Positions 1,100 through 7,107 are shown, numbered from the stretch's first letter. The stretch: DNA of 12,182 bases from a virus (IMGVR_UViG_3300032070_000001:1-12182), one strand, 5' to 3'. Numbers and translations: made by a program. The notes: generated from the letters alone by a model not told the origin.

Positions 1100-1389
1100 C
1101 ACAACCTCCCTCGGGACACGGAGAGAATGACTTGATAGCAGTAAATCGCCGGCTCGAACTTGACTTGCACGCGATAGCGGTGAACCTGCCTGCTGCACTG
1201 AGTCACAAGTGCTCGGATGGCATCGTCGAAGAGTCGTCGGCTCTTGTGCCAAGGTCGCCAGTCCACGTTGAGCGGGACCATAAGAACCTGGTGGAAAGGC
1301 TGCGAACAGTAGTTGTAGCCGCAGGCAGTAATGCCCTCTTGATCCAAAGCGTCGCGCAGGTCTTGCAGAAGGTAGTTGAGCCAGTGCAT
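1099..1389 (-). CDS. Hypothetical protein, 96 aa
   Basis: GGAGG Shine-Dalgarno just upstream of the ATG; stop coupled to the next start. Confidence 0.65.
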   Translation of the reverse strand: MHWLNYLLQDLRDALDQEGITACGYNYCSQPFHQVLMVPLNVDWRPWHKSRRLFDDAIRALVTQCSRQVHRYRVQVKFEPAIYCYQVILSVSRGRL

Positions 1390-1404
1390 GGATGACCTCC
1401 GAAA

Positions 1405-1478
1405 TAGCCCCGGCGGGAGTTGAACCCGCGTCTCCGGGTTGAAGGCCCGGTATCCTTACCGCTAGAAATGACGGGGCC
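1405..1478 (-). tRNA. tRNA-Glu(TTC), no encoded CCA, non-canonical C33
   Basis: Minus strand GGCCCCG TC ATTTCTAGCGGTAAGGAT A CCGGG CCTTCAA CCCGG AGAC GCGGG TTCAACT CCCGC CGGGGCT A. It has a 7-bp acceptor stem, a Glu-like D arm, a 5-bp anticodon stem with a 7-nt loop and a T arm. Confidence 0.85.
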
Positions 1479-1483
1479 GCCAG

Positions 1484-1750
1484 TTACTTGACCGGCGGAA
1501 GGCTGACGTGGCGACGATACAGGGTTAGTCGCTCTTCGATTTCGATGATGGCCTTATTCGGCATCGACTGAATCAGTGCCACGATGTTGTTGGCATGAGT
1601 GGCCGACATGCGCTCATAGACCACGGATGACTCAGGCGTCTTGGGTGTCTTGGGCGTGGGATTCTCTTTCGGTAGTAGGTAGTAAAGCCTCAAGAACCAA
1701 TCCGGCCCCGCTCTAAGGAGGCACTAACCCGAAGCAGGGCACCAACTCAT
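1484..1750 (-). pseudogene. Small hypothetical protein with a possible in-frame TAG at codon 9 (or a shorter gene starting at TTG 1693)
   Basis: AGGA SD and ATG at 1750 are in frame with track ORF 1484..1693: MSWCPASG*CLLRAGPDWFLRLYYLLPKENP..., with TAG at 1726-1724. Confidence 0.4.
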
Positions 1751-1758
1751 AGGGGTTC

Positions 1759-2061
1759 CTACTGGCAAAGCTTCTTCCAGACCCGCTTCATCGCCTTGTT
1801 AGCGGAGACTTGAAGCTTCTCCATGTCGGCCGTGGCCTTGACCACAACGCCGGTCAGTTCCACGGTCCTGTTTAAGTCGGCGAGCAAGGTGCCGTAGTGG
1901 TCCGCGGCAGCCGGCTCGGCGGTTTTGAGCGCGGTGCTTTTCTCTTCCAACTTGCCGCGAAGGTCCGCGATCATGTTTCGGAGGTACGTAAGGGCTTCAT
2001 GCGAAATGGATTCGCCGTTCTCGGTGGTAACAATGGTGAGATTGACACAAGCGTCGTTCAT
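1759..2061 (-). CDS. Hypothetical protein, 100 aa, probably alpha-helical or coiled-coil
   Basis: GGAG SD, ATG start, amphipathic helical composition. Confidence 0.7.
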   Translation of the reverse strand: MNDACVNLTIVTTENGESISHEALTYLRNMIADLRGKLEEKSTALKTAEPAAADHYGTLLADLNRTVELTGVVVKATADMEKLQVSANKAMKRVWKKLCQ

Positions 2062-2084
2062 CGGTGTTCTCCAAAAGGAAATGG

Positions 2085-2816
2085 TTACTCGCGCATACCT
2101 GCGAGATGCCTGATGCCCAGTCGGACTAACCGCACGACCGCCAGGGCATCGGCAATGGCAGTGTGGGCGACTTTCGTATTGATTCCAGCCCGTTCGTAAC
2201 AGGTCTTGCTATCCGGTAGCCGCTCGTCTTCAGGTTTCCAGAACAAGATGGCTGGGTCAAGGATGCGGTGACGGAAACCAAGGTGCCGGCCGAAGCCTGG
2301 CAAGCGCTTCAGGAATTGTAGGTCGAAACTGGCGAAATTCTTGCCGGCAGCCTGAATATGCAGCGGATCGAATCCGTTGGCCTGAAGCCACCGGGCAAAC
2401 TGCTCGCAGAACTCTTCTGGCTTGCAAAATTCGCAACGGGAGGTGACGGGTGGAGTGGGCGGATTAGCAATCTGCTTGAGCAGATTGGCATTCAAGGCCA
2501 TTGCAAAGGGACTGCCGGTGACCGTCTCGTAAACCAGGATGCGACGGAACCGCGGCAATTGGTCAATAAGCGTCTTCCAGTCGTCGATCACGGCTCCCAC
2601 TTCGAGCGTCTGGCAGGTCTCGGGGTCCAACCCGGTAGTCTCGATGTCGATGGAGACGTAAGGCATCTTGGGCGCAACCGGCGGCAACTTGGGATCATGG
2701 AGTCCGTGCATGATGCTTCCGCTCCATCCACAGCTAGAACAGTAGGACAGGGCGGGATTGGAAATACCGCCAGATACTTGTAACACCGCTTCACACTTCG
2801 GACAGAGTTTCTTCAT
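2085..2816 (-). CDS. DEDDh (DnaQ-superfamily) 3'-5' exonuclease with an N-terminal Zn-ribbon, 243 aa
   Basis: ExoI SIDIETTGLDP, ExoII AGKNFASFD, ExoIII HTAIAD. N-terminal CPKC...CSSC. Starts 3 nt after the Ro60 stop. Confidence 0.9.
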   Translation of the reverse strand: MKKLCPKCEAVLQVSGGISNPALSYCSSCGWSGSIMHGLHDPKLPPVAPKMPYVSIDIETTGLDPETCQTLEVGAVIDDWKTLIDQLPRFRRILVYETVTGSPFAMALNANLLKQIANPPTPPVTSRCEFCKPEEFCEQFARWLQANGFDPLHIQAAGKNFASFDLQFLKRLPGFGRHLGFRHRILDPAILFWKPEDERLPDSKTCYERAGINTKVAHTAIADALAVVRLVRLGIRHLAGMRE

Positions 2817-2819
2817 GGA

Positions 2820-4415
2820 TCAGTTTCGCGCGAAGTCAGCCATCACGGCGGGACATGAGGCGTCGAAGCCCACCACGTCCAACATCCCAGGGTCACTGGA
2901 GTCGGCGATGGTGAACTCGGTGGCCGTCATGCCGACGACGATCAGCTTGGCGTTGATCCCGGTCGTCTTGCGGTACTGGACGAGGGCCTGGGAGGGGTGA
3001 ATCTGACCGGCCCAAGTCTCGTTGTCCGTATAAACGACGAACGCATCCACCTCCAGTTGGTTTTGGAGGGCGTAGATCATGGGCTGAGCGCAATCCGTGC
3101 GGCCGTAGTCGATGCAGTCGATCTTCTCGATCACGCTGTCAAGCCGGCTGCAACGGGAGATGTTGATGGGCACCAGCACGTGCGAAAAGCCAATCAAGTG
3201 GGTCTGGGGCTCGCTCTTGAGAGTCACCATTGCCATGCAGGCTGACGCCTTGCGGGCGTCCAGACCCGTGTTGGCGAGATACTGGCACGTCATAGACCCG
3301 GACACGTCCAGGGCCAGCAGGTGCCGCTTGCCGCTGGGCTCCACGGCGTCGAAAGCCAGGTAGAAGGCGTCTTCCAGGGCGTCTCGGATTTGGGCCACCG
3401 GGTCCCAGGTCAGGCTTCCCTTGAGGCCGTGGCCTCTGCCGTAGGTGTCCAGGGCCAGCAGGACGGAGAGCGGATGGACTCGGGCGGCCTTGAGCCGGGC
3501 CAGGTCCCGCAGGGTCTCGCAGGCGGCTTGGGTTCCCCGAGAGAGGGGCTTGAGCAGCCCGATGCTGGTCATCTTTCCTAGGTTGCGGATCAAGGCCGTG
3601 GGCGGCAGGTTCGGCAGCAGGGCCTCCCAGACCGCCGGACTACCCAGGTGCGTGTTGGGGACGTGCTCCAGGGTCAAACCGTAGGTGCCGATCAAGCCGA
3701 TCAGTTCCTTCTCGGTCACGTTTGGCTGATTGGCGGCCTCAAAACCGATGATGATGTCAGGCACGCCACCAATGATCGTGTCGAAGGTTGCGCCTTTGAC
3801 GATGTAGCGATAGAGGGCGTTGTGATCGGCATCGGCTGCCGTGGGGTGGCTTAGCCGCAGAGCATCCCGATGGGTGTAGCCCACGCGGTTGCGGTACTTG
3901 GTCACCTGGTAGGCCAGCTTCTCCACCGATTTGTCGTTGTACCAGGCGGCCACGGCCTCGCGGAGTCCACGACCCCAGCCGCGCAGTTCCTTGCAGTTGG
4001 CGAGGAACTGAAACAGATGGGTGCCGATGCGGCAAACGCGGGGCAAAGCAACCAGGGCCAGATTTCGGGCGGCGTTATTCCCTCGGCTGGCCACGAGTGC
4101 CAAGGCAAAAATCGCCGGGTCGTTTTTGGGAGCGCGGCCTGCCTCGCTCACCTGGCAGATCGTCTCCACGGTGCGAGCGGGGTCTTCCTCGGCACAAGCC
4201 GTGATGCAAGTGGCGTTCTCTTGAGTCAGCTTCCGCTCGCCGACGTAGTAGGTGCCGCCTTCGGAACCGAGGATCAAGAAGCGCTGCAACCGGCCCCAGT
4301 CGTCGAGAACGTAGCTGTAACCCCCGGCATGGTTTTCTTGCTGACTGGTGCCGGGGATCGGCTCACTCTGCGGGGTCTGACATCGGGAGACGTGACGGGC
4401 GTAAGTGCGACTCAT
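2820..4415 (-). CDS. rsr: Ro60/Rsr-family TROVE-domain RNA-binding protein with a C-terminal vWA domain, 531 aa
   Basis: NHAGGYSY...RLQRFLILGSEGGTYY, PKNDPAIFALA, THLFQF, KYRNRVGYTHRDALRLSHP and LIRNLGKMT match Ro60 motifs. The vWA MIDAS motif is ALDVSGSM, followed by AFVVYTDNETW and MLDVVGFD. GGAG SD. Confidence 0.95.
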   Translation of the reverse strand: MSRTYARHVSRCQTPQSEPIPGTSQQENHAGGYSYVLDDWGRLQRFLILGSEGGTYYVGERKLTQENATCITACAEEDPARTVETICQVSEAGRAPKNDPAIFALALVASRGNNAARNLALVALPRVCRIGTHLFQFLANCKELRGWGRGLREAVAAWYNDKSVEKLAYQVTKYRNRVGYTHRDALRLSHPTAADADHNALYRYIVKGATFDTIIGGVPDIIIGFEAANQPNVTEKELIGLIGTYGLTLEHVPNTHLGSPAVWEALLPNLPPTALIRNLGKMTSIGLLKPLSRGTQAACETLRDLARLKAARVHPLSVLLALDTYGRGHGLKGSLTWDPVAQIRDALEDAFYLAFDAVEPSGKRHLLALDVSGSMTCQYLANTGLDARKASACMAMVTLKSEPQTHLIGFSHVLVPINISRCSRLDSVIEKIDCIDYGRTDCAQPMIYALQNQLEVDAFVVYTDNETWAGQIHPSQALVQYRKTTGINAKLIVVGMTATEFTIADSSDPGMLDVVGFDASCPAVMADFARN

Positions 4416-4432
4416 GGTGCAAACTCCAAAAG

Positions 4433-4492
4433 TTAGGCAAGGTGTTGTGACTGGGCGAATCGTAGAAGGATAACCCAGTCACTTCGGCCCAA
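4433..4492 (-). ncRNA. Y RNA-like small RNA, copy A
   Basis: TTGGGC-C-GAAG TGACTGGGTTATCC...GCCCAGTCAC AACAC CTTGCCTAA. It has a lower stem with a bulged C, a perfect 9-bp upper stem GTGACTGGG/CCCAGTCAC and a following TTTT, and ends 17 nt before the Ro60 ATG. Confidence 0.75.
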
Positions 4493-4511
4493 ACGTGAAA
4501 CGCTTCAAAAT

Positions 4512-4569
4512 CGGGCAAGGTGTGCCGATGGGTGAAATCTTAACAGGATAACCCAAGGGCTTCGGCCCG
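4512..4569 (-). ncRNA. Y RNA-like small RNA, copy B
   Basis: CGGGC-C-GAAG CCCTTGGGTTATCC...ACCCATCGGC ACAC CTTGCCCG then ATTTT. Same fold as copy A with a different upper-stem sequence. Confidence 0.72.
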
Positions 4570-4572
4570 GAG

Positions 4573-4660
4573 GCACGTCGATAGGACTCGAACCTACGAC
4601 TTCAGGTTTCCTTGATAACGCTGGTTTACCTGCGCTCTAGCCAACTGAGCTACGACGTGC
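4573..4660 (-). ncRNA. tRNA-like RNA with a 20-nt anticodon loop
   Basis: GCACGTCG TA GCTC AGTTGGCTA GAGC G CAGGT [AAACCAGCGTTATCAAGGAA] ACCTG AAGTC GTAGG TTCGAGT CCTAT CGACGTGC. The D and T arms are canonical, the acceptor stem is 8 bp, there is no 7-nt anticodon loop and no CCA. Confidence 0.8.
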
Positions 4661-4673
4661 ATTTGGTTGTTAA

Positions 4674-4895
4674 TCAGGCAGTGTACCGCGTGATGCCGTC
4701 CCGCACTGCCTTGCCGCGAAGTGTCTTGATCTTCATGCCTTTCGCGCGAAGATGACTGAGTTGGACAGTCAAATTGGCGCGCTTGACCTTGCGACGAGTC
4801 TTCTTGCCGACTTATTCGACAAGTTGAGTCATTGTGTACCGCCGGCCGCTGCGAAGAACGGCCTTCAATGCTTCTTGCTGATTCGGTCGCGTCAT
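4674..4895 (-). pseudogene. Small basic, winged-HTH-like protein interrupted by an in-frame TAA at codon 28
   Basis: AGGA SD and ATG at 4895: MTRPNQQEALKAVLRSGRRYTMTQLVE*VGKKTRRKVKRANLTVQLSHLRAKGMKIKTLRGKAVRDGITRYTA*. TAA at 4814-4812; the frame stays protein-like on both sides. The fold call is by eye. Confidence 0.55.
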
Positions 4896-4942
4896 GGGTT
4901 CTTCCTAAATGGTTGAGTGGAAACAAACGGACAAGTTTTCAG

Positions 4943-5019
4943 TGGACCCTGCCGGGACTCGAACCCGGATCAGTCGTCGGCAAAGCCAAAGCTGTGCTGC
5001 CATTACACCACAGAGTCCA
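4943..5019 (-). ncRNA. tRNA-like RNA (D arm resembles tRNA-Gln) with a malformed anticodon arm
   Basis: TGGACTCTG TG GTGT AATGGCA GCAC AGCTTTGGCTTTGCCGACGACTGAT CCGGG TTCGAGT CCCGG CAGGGTCCA. The T arm is perfect, but no 5-bp stem with a 7-nt loop can be drawn in the anticodon region (best is TTGGC-TTT-GCCGA). Confidence 0.72.
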
Positions 5020-5024
5020 TAAAG

Positions 5025-5086
5025 CGCGGGCAAGGGTATGCCAGTGGGTAAACTGATGATAGGTAACCCATCGACTTTGGCCCGCG
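5025..5086 (-). ncRNA. Y RNA-like small RNA, copy C
   Basis: CGCGGGC-C-AAAG TCGATGGGTTACC...ACCCACTGGC ATACC CTTGCCCGCG then CTTT. It has a 7-bp terminal stem, a bulged C, and a G-to-A change that keeps pairing with U. Confidence 0.7.
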
Positions 5087-5101
5087 TGTTTCACGGTCTT
5101 G

Positions 5102-5464
5102 TTAAACTCCTAGTTCTTGGAGGATTCGGATTTCGACTTTCGTGAGTTTCTTGAGTGCTTGGCGTCGGTAAGCAGTGAGTCGGTCGTACTCGCGGCACGC
5201 TTGCCGGTGCGCTTCGAGGATTTTCTGGTACGCTTGGCGGCAGGCCGCTTTCGTCCCTTGCCCCGTGCCGTGGCAAGTGGCGCAACGGATGGGTCGGTCG
5301 AGTCGGTAGTTGTCTTCCGGGAAGACGCTTTCGATGCAGACTTCAATCGTTTGTGTCCCTTTTCCTCGGCAGACGAGGCAAGGGTAGGGGCGGATGGCAT
5401 CACTTCCGTGGGCGAAGCAGAAGAGTCCGAAGTTCTTATAAGGTCGTCGGGGGCGGCTTCGCAT
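5102..5464 (-). CDS. Hypothetical protein with two DnaJ-type CxxCxGxG zinc-binding motifs, 120 aa
   Basis: CLVCRGKG and CATCHGTG; GAGGA SD upstream of ATG 5464. Confidence 0.75.
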   Translation of the reverse strand: MRSRPRRPYKNFGLFCFAHGSDAIRPYPCLVCRGKGTQTIEVCIESVFPEDNYRLDRPIRCATCHGTGQGTKAACRQAYQKILEAHRQACREYDRLTAYRRQALKKLTKVEIRILQELGV

Positions 5465-5895
5465 TCCTCTTCCTCATAGTCTGCACGTTGTCGCACTGGG
5501 CGACTATCACTAAGAATGTCGTAAATCCGTCGATTCAGTTTTGTCTCGACCCATGCCGGGAAACCGATTGGAATGTGTCCGCCGAACAGTTCCTTCAAGG
5601 CCCGGATGCCGGTCACCTCGGTGGCCTTGGTCCAGAGCCGGTAATGCTGTTCACACTCTTCCTGAGCCGCTTTCAAGGTTTTAATGAGCCGCCGTTCGCG
5701 GTTCACGAAGTCCCATCCTGGTCGCAGTTCTCCGTCACTGTAAGGAATCAAGGTACGGACGCACGCTTGATACCTAGCGGGTATTTGAACGCCTCGGTAT
5801 TCACATCTCCAGATGATCCGGTAGCCTTCCTCCGTGAACCAACTGCGGCGGACCTTCTGGTCTTGGCCTTTTTTCTTTTTGCGGATGAATTCCAT
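5110..5895 (-). CDS. Hypothetical protein, 261 aa, with a globular-looking N-half and a Ser/Lys/Arg-rich tail overlapping the Zn-finger gene
   Basis: Long ORF whose ATG lies immediately after the last CRISPR-like repeat. The true 3' extent is uncertain. Confidence 0.65.
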   Translation of the reverse strand: MEFIRKKKKGQDQKVRRSWFTEEGYRIIWRCEYRGVQIPARYQACVRTLIPYSDGELRPGWDFVNRERRLIKTLKAAQEECEQHYRLWTKATEVTGIRALKELFGGHIPIGFPAWVETKLNRRIYDILSDSRPVRQRADYEEEECEAAPDDLIRTSDSSASPTEVMPSAPTLASSAEEKGHKRLKSASKASSRKTTTDSTDPSVAPLATARGKGRKRPAAKRTRKSSKRTGKRAASTTDSLLTDAKHSRNSRKSKSESSKN

Positions 5896-5896
5896 T

Positions 5897-5998
5897 GGTA
5901 GTCTTACTAGGGAATCTCAGGTGGTCTGCAACCTCTGCTGTCAAGGGCAATTGCGGGTTTGTGGTGGTCTTACTAGGGAATCTCAGGTGGTCTGCAAC
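5897..5998 (-). CRISPR. CRISPR-like mini-array: two 36-nt repeats and one 30-nt spacer
   Basis: Minus-strand repeats GTTGCAGACCACCTGAGATTCCCTAGTAAGAC(C/T)ACC at 5998-5963 and 5932-5897 (35/36 identical; 37 nt if the shared flanking A is included). Spacer ACAAACCCGCAATTGCCCTTGACAGCAGAG at 5962-5933. With only two repeats, this is below the usual array threshold. Confidence 0.72.
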
Positions 5999-7097
5999 AG
6001 GTTGGTTGTAACTTGTCGCTGGCCTTCATGTTCCAGTGTTTTGCTGGCATTAAAATCGCGGTCGTGGACCGTTCCGCAACCTGGGCACGTCCATTTTCCT
6101 CAAAACCCAAGGTTGTGTTCTTGAATCCACAGAGATGACACGTCTTGCTTGAAGGAAAGTAGGGGTCGGCCTTGAGAAGTTGTTTCCCACGGTCGTGCAA
6201 CTTGTACTCAAGGCACTGACGAAAATGGCCATGTCCAACATCCGTGAGCGACTTGGCAAACCGGCCCTGTTGTTGGGCTTTCAGGGAGTGGGACTCGATG
6301 CACACTGCGTCGTACTTCTCGGCCACTTGCTTCGAGATGAAGTGCGAAAAGTGCTTGCGCCGGTTGGCGATACCGGCATGAATCTTAGCGATGCGAGCCA
6401 CTGTCTGTTTGCGGCGATTGCTTCCTTTCTTTTGGCGGGCCAACTTGCGCTGCCAATGGGCTAGTTTGCGGGCGTATTGACATGTCCACCGGGGGTTAGC
6501 AATCACCCTTTCATCGCTGATGACTGCATACTTGCGGAAACCTGTGTCGAGGCCAACGAGGTTGATTGGTGCAACAGGTGGCGGTGTCGGTAAATCCTTC
6601 TTAACAGTGAAACTCGCATACCAACGGTTTGCGACTCGTTTGATTCGGACAGCGGCACCGATCTTACCAGTTGCCGGTAAGTCGCGGGCGAGTTTCAGCC
6701 GCATCTTAGCAGCAATCAATCGTCGGCCTTTTAGTCGGCAGTGTTCTGGAATCAAGAAGCCTTGGTTGCTATCCTCGGGTCGCTTGCGCCGAGGGAAACC
6801 GGCTTTAACTTTACCTTGTTTCACTCGCTTGAAGAATGCGTTCATAGCGGTCCTCAAGTCACGAAGGGCGGCACGAACGGTATGGCTGTTTAGAGTCTGC
6901 ATCCCTTCCGTCTTGTGCAGTGAGACCGATTCTCGGCTAAGTCGATTCCAATCCAATTTCTCCTTGGCTTTGTGCCATTGCTGGATGGTTGCTAATCCCC
7001 AATTCCATACGCGGCGACGTGCGAATAGATACTGGCGCAACAAGGCCGTTTGTATTGGCGTCGGAAACAACCGGATTGTGTATTTGCGAGTGCTCAT
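5983..7097 (-). CDS. tnpB: TnpB-family / compact type V-like RNA-guided RuvC nuclease, ~371 aa once a 1-nt frameshift at 6094-6097 is repaired
   Basis: N-terminal YTIRLFPT, GFPRRK, RWYASFTV, RuvC-I VGLDTG, RuvC-II VCIES and SSKTCHLCG. The canonical end KWTCPGCGTVHDRDFNASKTL lies in the -1 frame and stops at TGA 5985-5983 inside the first repeat. The likely start is ATG 7097; the track starts at TTG 7106. Confidence 0.9.
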
Positions 7098-7107
7098 TGT
7101 TTTCAAG

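What the first reader, a model, noticed from the sequence alone, without database searches (positions are those of the whole stretch)
2085..5086. Self-contained Ro60 module: TROVE protein, coupled DEDDh exonuclease, three Y RNAs and two tRNA mimics in one apparent operon
Seen, 5'->3' on the minus strand: Y-like C, tRNA-like, small HTH-like ORF, tRNA-like, Y-like B, Y-like A, Ro60, a 3-nt gap, then the Zn-ribbon DEDDh exonuclease. Established: in Deinococcus, Rsr is tethered by Y RNA to PNPase (RYPER) to degrade structured RNA, and in Salmonella rsr-yrl loci sit with the RtcB RNA-repair system. Inference: this element encodes its own Ro60/Y RNA/nuclease machine using a DEDDh enzyme instead of PNPase. 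It could trim or degrade damaged or host RNAs, or counter RNA-damaging defences. I do not recall this combination being described, but cannot verify novelty.
Basis: partly seen in the sequence, partly recalled or inferred. Interest (0 to 1): 0.88.

Follow-up and report, generated by a model that had tools for sequence, protein, structure and literature searches.

The report
Phage Ro60 and Y-RNA cassette
A phage from sediment carries a real, mobile Ro60 gene with its own array of small Y RNAs and tRNA-shaped RNAs, but the exonuclease gene next to it is an ordinary backbone gene of this phage group that became its neighbour by insertion, not a demonstrated partner.

Summary
On the minus strand lie three ~65-nt Y RNAs, two tRNA-like RNAs with abnormal anticodon arms, a small winged-helix ORF, a Ro60/Rsr ortholog and, 3 nt later, a Zn-ribbon DEDDh exonuclease. 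One correction: the small ORF is broken here by an in-frame TAA. A second sediment sample has the same junctions.

Ro60 plus Y RNAs is a typical phage Ro60 cassette. My Y-RNA model hits 60 of 81 viral Ro60 loci, almost always on the Ro60 strand and within 1.5 kb, with strong covariation.

The exonuclease is a conserved backbone gene:
- 18 of 22 relatives with it lack Ro60, and three others hold Ro60 about 25 kb away.
- Only 1 of 81 Ro60 loci has it within 5 kb.
- In 17 of 22 relatives a Zn-ribbon gene occupies the cassette's place.

So a dedicated Ro60–DEDDh machine is unlikely (about 0.1). Use of a host exoribonuclease is more likely, as shown in vitro for Thermus phage phiLo.

One further result: 44 of 81 loci hold tRNA-shaped RNAs with a Ro60-binding helix in the anticodon arm, a circular permutation of YrlA that I did not find described. 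An earlier scan note on this genome also flagged the three Y RNAs.

The parts
5022..5088 (-). Y RNA 'C': linear mini Y RNA with a bulged Ro60-binding lower stem, an upper stem and a GGGUUAC motif
   Evidence: Model R1 77.6 bits. RF01656 27.3 bits. Fold z-score -2.5.
4944..5017 (-). tRNA-like element t1: cloverleaf with normal acceptor, D and T arms. The anticodon arm is a 5-bp stem with a UUU triloop, or a 7-nt loop GCUUUGC without U33.
   Evidence: Rfam tRNA 39.2 bits. ARAGORN structure. R2 27.3 bits, like ordinary tRNAs.
4677..4895 (-). Small winged-helix ORF of the cassette, broken here by an in-frame TAA at 4814-4812 (Q/L in homologs)
   Evidence: Translation. Intact homologs P0003-P0006, 71-89% identical, sit inside Y arrays upstream of Ro60 in L113, L115 and L117. 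Winged-helix model. The TAA is not variant in a second sample.
4573..4659 (-). tRNA-like element t2: shortened member of the tRNA-shaped Y RNA family. It keeps the base helix and GCGUUAUC but lacks the Ro60-binding hairpin.
   Evidence: Rfam tRNA 50.2 bits with a 20-nt anticodon loop. R2 68.9 bits, against 52.8 bits or less for the ordinary-length (about 70-85 nt) tRNA hits. Alignment with L029 and L105.
4507..4572 (-). Y RNA 'B', directly abutting t2
   Evidence: R1 72.7 bits. RF01656 28.6 bits.
4429..4497 (-). Y RNA 'A', ending 14 nt before the Ro60 start codon
   Evidence: R1 78.3 bits. RF01656 32.8 bits. Fold z-score -3.9.
2820..4415 (-). Ro60/Rsr ortholog (TROVE ring plus vWA domain with a DxSxS MIDAS motif)
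   Evidence: Pfam, PHROG 850, NCBIfam Rsr. Invariant D370, S372 and S374.
2085..2816 (-). Zn-ribbon DEDDh 3'-5' exonuclease. It is a conserved backbone gene of this phage clade and a neighbour of the cassette, not a demonstrated part of it.
   Evidence: for identity. for its independence from Ro60.

Best explanation
The stretch 2820-5088 is a mobile phage Ro60 ribonucleoprotein cassette. It consists of a Ro60/Rsr ortholog preceded, on the same strand, by a tightly packed array of non-coding RNAs: three linear, metazoan-type mini Y RNAs and two tRNA-like RNAs. A small winged-helix gene sits inside the array and is inactivated in this genome.

Inferred mechanism:
- The array is made as one precursor.
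- It is cut at the tRNA-like elements by host tRNA-processing enzymes (RNase P at their 5' ends, a 3' tRNA-processing nuclease at their 3' ends). This releases Y RNAs.
- The conserved bulged helix of these Y RNAs (GGGCCGAAG paired with CUUGCCC) binds the Ro60 ring.
- As in Deinococcus, Salmonella and Thermus phage phiLo, the Y RNAs then gate the Ro60 ring or tether it to a host 3'-5' exoribonuclease such as PNPase. This would remodel or degrade structured RNA during infection.

The DEDDh exonuclease gene that follows Ro60 by 3 nt is a conserved backbone gene of this phage clade. The cassette was inserted in front of it, in the place of a Zn-ribbon gene. The two genes are therefore probably co-transcribed here by accident of insertion, not because they form one machine.
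For: Shown:
- Ro60 identity.
- Y RNAs: model R1 gives 117 hits in 60 of 81 viral Ro60 loci. Of these, 116 are on the Ro60 strand and 102 lie within 1.5 kb of Ro60. There are none elsewhere in the window's 90.7-kb genome and none in the 21 exonuclease loci without nearby Ro60.
- Covariation for the Y RNAs: 93.7% of cells paired, covariation score 0.742 against 0.134 or less with slid partners.
- tRNA-shaped RNAs occur next to Ro60 in 44 of 81 loci. All 28 pairs show compensatory changes.
- Head-to-tail packing is seen in relatives, for example L029: tY-tY-Y-Y-Ro60.
- The same Y/small-ORF/Y/Y/Ro60 order occurs in L113, L115 and L117, in a different genomic context (DNA polymerase A ... Ro60 ... 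ligase).
- The exonuclease is a backbone gene. The order o9764-o7865-o7693-o7251-o5110-(Zn-ribbon gene)-exonuclease is conserved in the 22 relatives.
- Only 4 of those 22 hold Ro60, and 3 of the 4 hold it about 25 kb from the exonuclease. Three relatives that are at least 91% complete lack Ro60.
- Only 1 of 81 Ro60 loci has the exonuclease within 5 kb.

From the literature:
[quoted passage not shown] M. smegmatis YrlA is cut by RNase P (PMC4201824).
- Phage phiLo Ro60 binds two upstream Y-like RNAs and forms a complex with host PNPase in vitro (PMC12135203).
Against: - No expression data exist. No RNA run holds the sequence, so transcript ends and processing are inferred only.
- t2 lacks the Ro60-binding hairpin and t1 never had one in the fetched data, so their role as processing signals is a guess.
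- The small cassette gene is broken here, so the cassette may be partly decaying.
- Two of the five clade genomes that hold both genes have them within 1 kb of each other, in two different arrangements and in two different exonuclease subclades. That is more than I would expect for random placement in 90-150 kb genomes and leaves room for a functional link.
- Which host nuclease, if any, is recruited is unknown.
Confidence: 0.72

Rival explanations
1. One reading: Ro60, the Y RNAs and the translationally coupled DEDDh exonuclease form a dedicated, phage-encoded RYPER-like degradation or trimming machine, with the DEDDh enzyme taking the place of PNPase.
For: - A 3-nt gap on the same strand.
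- The predicted fold resembles RNase T and oligoribonuclease as closely as it resembles DnaQ.
- A second genome (G020/L024) has the cassette 0.74 kb downstream of its exonuclease, in a different arrangement and a different exonuclease subclade.
- Bacterial Ro60 is known to work with 3'-5' exoribonucleases (PMC4201824).
Against: - 18 of 22 exonuclease-bearing relatives lack Ro60, including three that are at least 91% complete. Three of the four that have Ro60 keep it about 25 kb away.
- Only 1 of 81 Ro60 loci has the exonuclease within 5 kb.
- No RNase_T-family protein was found among 70 downstream neighbours of Ro60.
- In 17 of 22 relatives the exonuclease start overlaps or abuts the stop of a different upstream gene, a 176-188 aa Zn-ribbon protein, so tight spacing is a property of the exonuclease's position, not of Ro60.
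- The window's exonuclease shows no residue pattern that sets it apart from exonucleases of Ro60-free relatives.
Confidence: 0.1
2. The exonuclease is a DNA enzyme (a proofreading or repair DnaQ-like subunit) of the phage replication or DNA-metabolism module and has nothing to do with RNA.
For: - PHROG 192 'DNA polymerase exonuclease subunit', 3.1e-17.
- The best solved relative by sequence is a DnaQ domain, 8h18, at 5.3e-07.
- A DNA methylase lies in the same conserved gene block.
- The family is widespread: 1321 homologs, with automatic names split between pol III epsilon and oligoribonuclease.
Against: - The phage's family A polymerase lies in an 890-aa open frame about 22 kb away and may carry its own exonuclease domain.
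- Fold similarity to RNase T, Orn and REXO2 is equally strong.
- tRNA genes lie just downstream of the exonuclease in the window and in 4 relatives, which fits an RNA 3'-end role as well.
- Sequence cannot decide the substrate.
Confidence: 0.4
3. The two tRNA-like elements are simply decayed phage tRNA genes left over from a tRNA array and have no role in the Ro60 cassette.
For: - 32 of 81 Ro60 loci have ordinary tRNA genes within 5 kb.
- t1 scores like an ordinary tRNA with model R2 (27.3 bits), and blastn (blastn-short, E <= 1e-3) found no full-length t1 homolog in the fetched loci.
Against: - t2 scores 68.9 bits with R2, above every ordinary-length tRNA hit (52.8 bits or less). It aligns end to end with the tRNA-shaped Y RNAs of L029 and L105 apart from one clean internal deletion, and it keeps the family motif GCGUUAUC.
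- Both elements directly abut Y RNAs, with 2- to 6-nt spacers, as in relatives.
Confidence: 0.2

Closest known systems
Phage-encoded Ro60 with upstream Y-like RNAs (Thermus phage phiLo phiRo60 with Yrl1/Yrl2, PMC12135203; Ro60 phages in Chen et al. 2014, PMC4201824)
   Same: A Ro60 ortholog is preceded on the same strand by two or more Y-like RNAs with the CGAA-containing bulged stem. The cassette encodes no PNPase, so a host nuclease is presumably used.
   Different: Here there are three very short (~65 nt) Y RNAs in which both strands of the metazoan-type helix and a GGGUUAUC motif are conserved. There are also stand-alone tRNA-like elements and a small winged-helix gene inside the array. 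The host is probably a Planctomycete (an earlier scan note, not tested by me).
Bacterial YrlA (Rfam RF02553; Salmonella, M. smegmatis)
   Same: A Ro60-binding stem is joined to a tRNA-like body with D and T arms, encoded next to rsr. M. smegmatis YrlA is even cut by RNase P in its acceptor loop (PMC4201824).
   Different: YrlA has its ends at the Ro60-binding stem and a closed acceptor stem. The phage RNAs found here have open acceptor ends and a closed Ro60-binding hairpin in the anticodon arm, which is a circular permutation. RF02553 gives no hit in the window at E <= 1. In L024 it gives only a partial hit that runs from the T arm of one unit to the D arm of the next. Chen et al. filtered out hits of that kind as tandem-tRNA artefacts.
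Metazoan Y RNAs and nematode sbRNAs (Rfam RF00019, RF01656)
   Same: A lower stem with a bulged C (GGNCCGA paired with UUGNCC), an upper stem, and the GGGUUAUC / UUAUC motif. The window copies hit RF01656 at 27-33 bits. One relative (L053) reaches that family's gathering score, 38.1 bits.
   Different: About 65 nt instead of 80-130 nt, with almost no effector loop. They are encoded in tandem in a phage operon rather than as Pol III genes. The window copies score below the gathering thresholds.
RYPER (Rsr - Y RNA - PNPase) of Deinococcus radiodurans
   Same: A Ro60 ring plus a Y RNA.
   Different: The effector there is PNPase, bound through a specific Y RNA module. Here the candidate DEDDh enzyme does not co-occur with Ro60 in relatives, and the mini Y RNAs have hardly any effector-binding loop.
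tRNA-punctuated processing of non-coding RNAs (MALAT1/mascRNA; tRNA-flanked sRNAs)
   Same: tRNA-like elements directly abut other small RNAs, so RNase P and a 3' tRNA-processing nuclease could define the ends of those RNAs.
   Different: This is purely inferred here; no ends have been mapped.

Membership tests
Ro60 / Rsr (TROVE family) | TROVE HEAT-repeat ring domain | tested here: met
   PF05731, 2.4e-40; also found by the genome search.
Ro60 / Rsr (TROVE family) | C-terminal vWA domain with a DxSxS MIDAS motif | tested here: met
   PF25045, 9.3e-66. D370, S372 and S374 are invariant in 33 phage Ro60 sequences.
Ro60 / Rsr (TROVE family) | NCBIfam Rsr equivalog cut-off (900 bits) | tested here: not met
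   540 bits over the full length. It is a divergent ortholog, not a close bacterial Rsr.
Y RNA | Terminal stem with the conserved bulged Ro60-binding helix, supported by covariation | tested here: met
   The consensus of 107 distinct hits keeps GGCCGaag ... GGUUAUC ... cUUGccC.
Y RNA | Encoded next to Ro60 on the same strand | tested here: met
   116 of 117 hits are on the Ro60 strand and 102 lie within 1.5 kb.
Y RNA | Rfam gathering score (RF00019 or RF01656) | tested here: not met
   Window copies score 27.3-32.8 bits against a threshold of 38 for RF01656. RF00019 gives no hit at E <= 1.
Y RNA | Physical binding to Ro60 | not testable with these tools
   Needs immunoprecipitation or a gel-shift assay.
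YrlA (RF02553) | T arm, then a closed acceptor hairpin, then the D arm, all nested inside the Ro60-binding stem | tested here: not met
   No RF02553 hit in the window. The related phage RNAs have the permuted topology.
tRNA | Cloverleaf with acceptor, D and T arms | tested here: met
   RF00005 at 50.2 and 39.2 bits, above the gathering score of 29.
tRNA | 7-nt anticodon loop with U33 and a purine at position 37 | tested here: not met
   t2 has a 20-nt loop, or C33 in ARAGORN's forced fold. t1 has loop GCUUUGC, which can close to a UUU triloop.
DEDDh (DnaQ / RNase T) exonucleases | Exo I-III motifs: D, E, D and H-x4-D | tested here: met
   D57, E59, D165, H218 and D223 are invariant in 20 sequences.
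DEDDh (DnaQ / RNase T) exonucleases | DnaQ-like fold | tested here: met
   Model pLDDT 84.5. Foldseek probability 1.0 to DnaQ domain 8h18, RNase T, Orn and REXO2. Pfam RNase_T sits exactly at its cut-off, 24.0 bits.
RYPER-like Ro60 / Y RNA / exonuclease machine | The nuclease co-occurs with Ro60 across relatives | tested here: not met
   4 of 22 and 1 of 81. None found among 70 downstream neighbours.
RYPER-like Ro60 / Y RNA / exonuclease machine | The Y RNA tethers the nuclease to Ro60 | not testable with these tools
   Needs co-purification with and without Y RNA.

The most novel reading that the evidence does not exclude
Phage Ro60 cassettes use a so far undescribed class of Y RNA. It is a tRNA-shaped molecule with open acceptor ends whose anticodon arm is replaced by a closed Ro60-binding hairpin plus a GUUAUC motif, in effect a circular permutation of bacterial YrlA. 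This class works together with metazoan-type ~65-nt mini Y RNAs. The whole array would be matured by the host's tRNA-processing enzymes. These RNAs could present Ro60 to tRNA-binding factors, or be CCA-tailed like a tRNA. In this phage the tRNA-shaped copy has lost its Ro60-binding hairpin.
Probability: 0.45. Interest if true: 0.65.

Novelty: new variant of a known kind. Interest (0 to 1): 0.45.

Why it matters
Ro60 and Y RNAs are a conserved RNA-surveillance system whose role in phages is almost unexplored; only one phage Ro60 has been studied biochemically.

This window shows three things:
- The cassette is mobile within a clade of sediment (pro)phages.
- Its Y RNAs are closer to the animal type than to bacterial YrlA.
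- Many phage Ro60 loci carry tRNA-shaped RNAs with the Ro60-binding helix in the anticodon arm. Standard YrlA searches would miss that topology or discard it as tandem tRNAs.

These points give concrete, testable RNAs for asking how phages use Ro60.

Showing that the attractive 'Ro60 plus its own DEDDh nuclease' idea rests on an insertion accident should also save a bench project from starting on the wrong premise.

Tried and rejected
- Complex prediction of Ro60 (33-row alignment) with the exonuclease (20-row alignment): no verdict, score 0.00. I use it neither for nor against binding.
- The look-up of sequencing runs: no RNA holder was listed, only DNA contigs from sediment metagenomes. Expression and RNA ends could not be examined.
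- Sigma-70 promoter and terminator scan of 1300-6000: no promoter-like site, and four terminator-like sites, all on the plus strand and no more than in shuffles. Uninformative.
- Sequence and fold comparison of the exonuclease could not decide between RNA and DNA. DnaQ domain, RNase T, Orn/REXO2 and TREX-like hits have similar scores.
- Reading the L024 partial RF02553 (YrlA) hit as a true YrlA: rejected. It runs from the T arm of one tRNA-like unit to the D arm of the next, and the acceptor strands pair within units, not between them.
- Reading the 110-aa ORF 4594-4926: rejected. It runs through tRNA-like t2 and has no Pfam hit.
- Pfam on the small ORF family gave only sub-threshold hits. Foldseek E-values for its model are weak (0.03), although TM-scores of 0.64-0.74 to winged-helix domains are consistent.
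- Literature searches for a Ro60-DEDD pairing or a permuted YrlA found nothing. The library is incomplete, and the 2020 Annual Review on bacterial Ro60 was not held.


Full report
**Where the window lies.** The window is the first 12,182 bases of a 90.7-kb IMG/VR viral contig that is estimated 87% complete. Earlier scan notes call it a temperate Planctomycetes phage; I did not test that. DNA of this stretch occurs in two sediment metagenomes from different studies. Contigs from the second sample cover 1903-3439 and 3534-5930 with one mismatch each. The Ro60/exonuclease junction and the RNA array are therefore not assembly artefacts.

**The proteins.** ORF 2820-4415 (minus strand) is a Ro60/Rsr ortholog. 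It matches TROVE at 2.4e-40 and vWA_Ro60 at 9.3e-66, PHROG 850 and NCBIfam Rsr at 3.7e-162. The NCBIfam score is 540 bits, below the 900-bit equivalog cut-off. The MIDAS residues D370, S372 and S374 are invariant among 33 phage homologs.

ORF 2085-2816 starts 3 nt after the Ro60 stop codon. Across 20 homologs it has an invariant CxxC...CxxC Zn ribbon and invariant D57, E59, D165, H218 and D223. The predicted structure has pLDDT 84.5. It matches a DnaQ domain (8h18), RNase T, oligoribonuclease/REXO2 and TREX-like enzymes about equally well. It is a DEDDh exonuclease whose substrate cannot be read from sequence.

**The Y RNAs.**
- Rfam gives three sub-threshold hits to the nematode Y-RNA homolog family RF01656, at 4432-4495, 4508-4570 and 5024-5088 (27-33 bits, gathering score 38).
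- The three copies and one from relative L024 share GGGCCGAAG, a covarying upper stem, UGGGUUAUC, CCCA and ACCUUGCCC. This is the bulged Ro60-binding helix of animal Y RNAs, with both strands kept.
- A covariance model built from these four (R1) finds 117 sites in the 81 viral Ro60 loci I fetched. Of these, 116 are on the Ro60 strand and 102 are within 1.5 kb of the gene. Loci hold one to five copies, and 60 of 81 loci have at least one.
- R1 finds nothing elsewhere in the window's own genome. It also finds nothing in the 21 exonuclease-bearing loci that lack nearby Ro60.
- On the hit alignment 93.7% of cells are paired, 16 of 17 pairs show compensatory changes, and the covariation score is 0.742 against 0.134 or less for slid partners. 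The alignment is fitted to the model, which flatters these numbers.
- GUUAYC is present in 91 of 107 distinct hits.

These are real Y RNAs of a short, metazoan-like type. An earlier scan note on this genome (e1-5413848) reached the same reading.

**The tRNA-like elements.** Both pass the Rfam tRNA threshold, at 50.2 and 39.2 bits, but neither has a decoding anticodon loop.
- t2 (4573-4659) has a 5-bp stem closed by 20 nt.
- t1 (4944-5017) has loop GCUUUGC without U33, which can close to a UUU triloop.

In relatives, Rfam reports 120-131-nt 'tRNAs' just upstream of Ro60. When aligned, they show normal acceptor, D and T arms and an insert of about 55 nt in the anticodon arm. The insert reads cUUGCCC, a loop, GGGCCGAa ... 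GCGUUAUC. This is the Ro60-binding helix closed at its 'terminal' end and opening into the tRNA body, which makes it a circular permutation of bacterial YrlA. The acceptor strands pair within each unit, with full covariation, and not between neighbouring units. This excludes a YrlA reading of tandem copies.

Model R2 finds hits of at least 100 nt in 44 of 81 Ro60 loci, and 64 of the 68 hits lie on the Ro60 strand within 1.5 kb. All 28 pairs show compensatory changes, and the three insert helices are 80-90% paired.

The window's t2 scores 68.9 bits with R2, above every ordinary-length tRNA hit (52.8 bits or less). It aligns with L029 and L105 apart from one clean deletion that removed the Ro60-binding hairpin but kept the base helix and GCGUUAUC. 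t1 scores like an ordinary tRNA (27.3 bits) and has no full-length homolog by blastn (blastn-short, E <= 1e-3) in the fetched loci.

**The small ORF.** Frame 4895-4677 has an in-frame TAA at 4814-4812. Four intact proteins of 73-75 aa, 71-89% identical, have Q or L at that position. In L113, L115 and L117 their genes sit inside a Y array just upstream of Ro60. The order there is tY-Y-ORF-Y-Y-Ro60, in a context of DNA polymerase A ... Ro60 ... ligase, with no exonuclease. The family model is a winged helix, with pLDDT 76 and TM-scores of 0.64-0.74 to Fur, BlaI and NolR domains, though the E-values are weak. The ORF is therefore a genuine cassette gene that is broken in this phage. The TAA is not variant in the second sample.

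**Is the exonuclease part of the machine?**
- A scan of viral contigs found 22 relatives of the exonuclease.
- They share a conserved gene order, o9764 (DNA methylase)-o7865-o7693-o7251-o5110-exonuclease.
- In 17 of the 22, the gene directly upstream of the exonuclease is a 176-188 aa Zn-ribbon protein; in L005 its stop overlaps the exonuclease start codon. That gene is absent from the window's genome. The Ro60 cassette sits exactly in its place, between o5110 and the exonuclease.
- Whole-contig searches show Ro60 in only 4 of the 22 relatives. In G020 the Ro60 gene starts 0.74 kb downstream of the exonuclease. In G011, G019 and G021 it lies about 25 kb away. Three relatives that are at least 91% complete have no Ro60.
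- Conversely, of 81 Ro60 loci only the G020 contig has an exonuclease homolog within 5 kb.
- The 70 downstream neighbours of Ro60 are heterogeneous and include no RNase_T-family protein. A few are RNA-repair genes: PNKP phosphatase, RlaP and a ligase OB domain.

The region is plastic. A TnpB gene (5973-7106) and an HNH gene are window-specific or patchy inserts. tRNA genes lie downstream of the exonuclease in the window and in four relatives. Ro60 cassettes often lie beside tRNA genes; 32 of 81 loci have tRNAs within 5 kb. The simplest reading is that the cassette landed in the accessory/tRNA region next to a backbone gene.

I put a functional link at about 0.1.

**Comparison with what is known.** Ro60 with neighbouring Y RNAs has been reported for 254 bacteria and 22 phages. 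In M. smegmatis, YrlA and YrlB are cut from one precursor, and RNase P cleaves YrlA (PMC4201824). Phage phiLo Ro60 binds two upstream Y-like RNAs and forms a ternary complex with host PNPase in vitro (PMC12135203). Jumbo-phage surveys also mention TROVE proteins (PMC7824862).

The cassette is thus a new member of a known kind. Its variant features are the very short animal-type Y RNAs, the tRNA-shaped permuted Y RNAs in relatives, and the embedded winged-helix gene. I found no paper describing a Ro60-DEDD pairing or the permuted topology, but the searchable library is incomplete.

**Mechanism.**
- Shown: the elements, their conservation, their linkage to Ro60, and the independence of the exonuclease from Ro60.
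- Inferred: one precursor transcript; cleavage at the tRNA-like elements; binding of the Y RNAs to Ro60 through the bulged helix; gating of the ring or tethering to a host exoribonuclease.
- Unknown: the target RNAs and the benefit to the phage.

Noticed in passing
window 5973-7106 (-): An IS605-family TnpB gene (OrfB_IS605, HTH_OrfB_IS605 and Cas12f1-like TNB domains) lies between o7251 and o5110. Those two genes are adjacent in most relatives (e.g. L005-L007, L013, L016), so it is a second insertion into this region, specific to this phage.
   Followed up: partly
L005:5438-6004 and homologs in 17 of 22 exonuclease loci: A 176-188 aa protein is encoded directly upstream of the exonuclease in relatives. 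Its N-terminal Zn ribbon weakly resembles the exonuclease's own Zn ribbon. It is absent from the window's genome, has no Pfam family, and its function is unknown.
   Followed up: partly
L022, L023, L024, L025 (match 6001-6915): A subclade of the exonuclease carries an insertion of about 65 aa between Exo I and Exo II, giving proteins of about 300 aa. G020, the other genome with Ro60 close by, belongs to this subclade.
   Followed up: no
L064:359-418 and L027:3921-3978: Twister ribozyme hits on the Ro60 strand 1-4.5 kb upstream of phage Ro60 genes. Twister-P5 scores 52.5 bits, above its gathering score. Twister-P1 scores 45.6 bits, below its threshold.
   Followed up: no
window 1405-1478 (-): The tRNA-Glu(UUC) downstream of the exonuclease scores 50 bits. 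However, it has loop CCUUCAA (C at position 33) and three nucleotides between the acceptor and D stems, so it may also be atypical. tRNA-Glu genes follow the exonuclease in L022 and L023 too.
   Followed up: no
L097:6665-6738: ARAGORN calls a tRNA with anticodon UCA ('SeC') about 70 nt after a phage Ro60 gene, next to an R1 Y-RNA hit at 6597-6665. It may be a suppressor-like tRNA or another tRNA mimic.
   Followed up: no
L001:4886-5373 (Mycobacterium phage prophiGD43A-5) and L002:4584-4805 (Gordonia phage BearBQ): Cultured actinophages with annotated 'Ro-like RNA binding protein' genes also give R1 and R2 hits just upstream of Ro60 on its strand, in stretches with no annotated feature (apart from one tRNA-Thr in L001).
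   Followed up: partly
L113:7936-9030: In the contigs that carry the intact small winged-helix gene, an ATP-dependent ligase-like gene (DNA_ligase_OB_2, with weak RNA_ligase similarity) lies 0.9 kb downstream of Ro60. This is a possible RNA-repair link.
   Followed up: no
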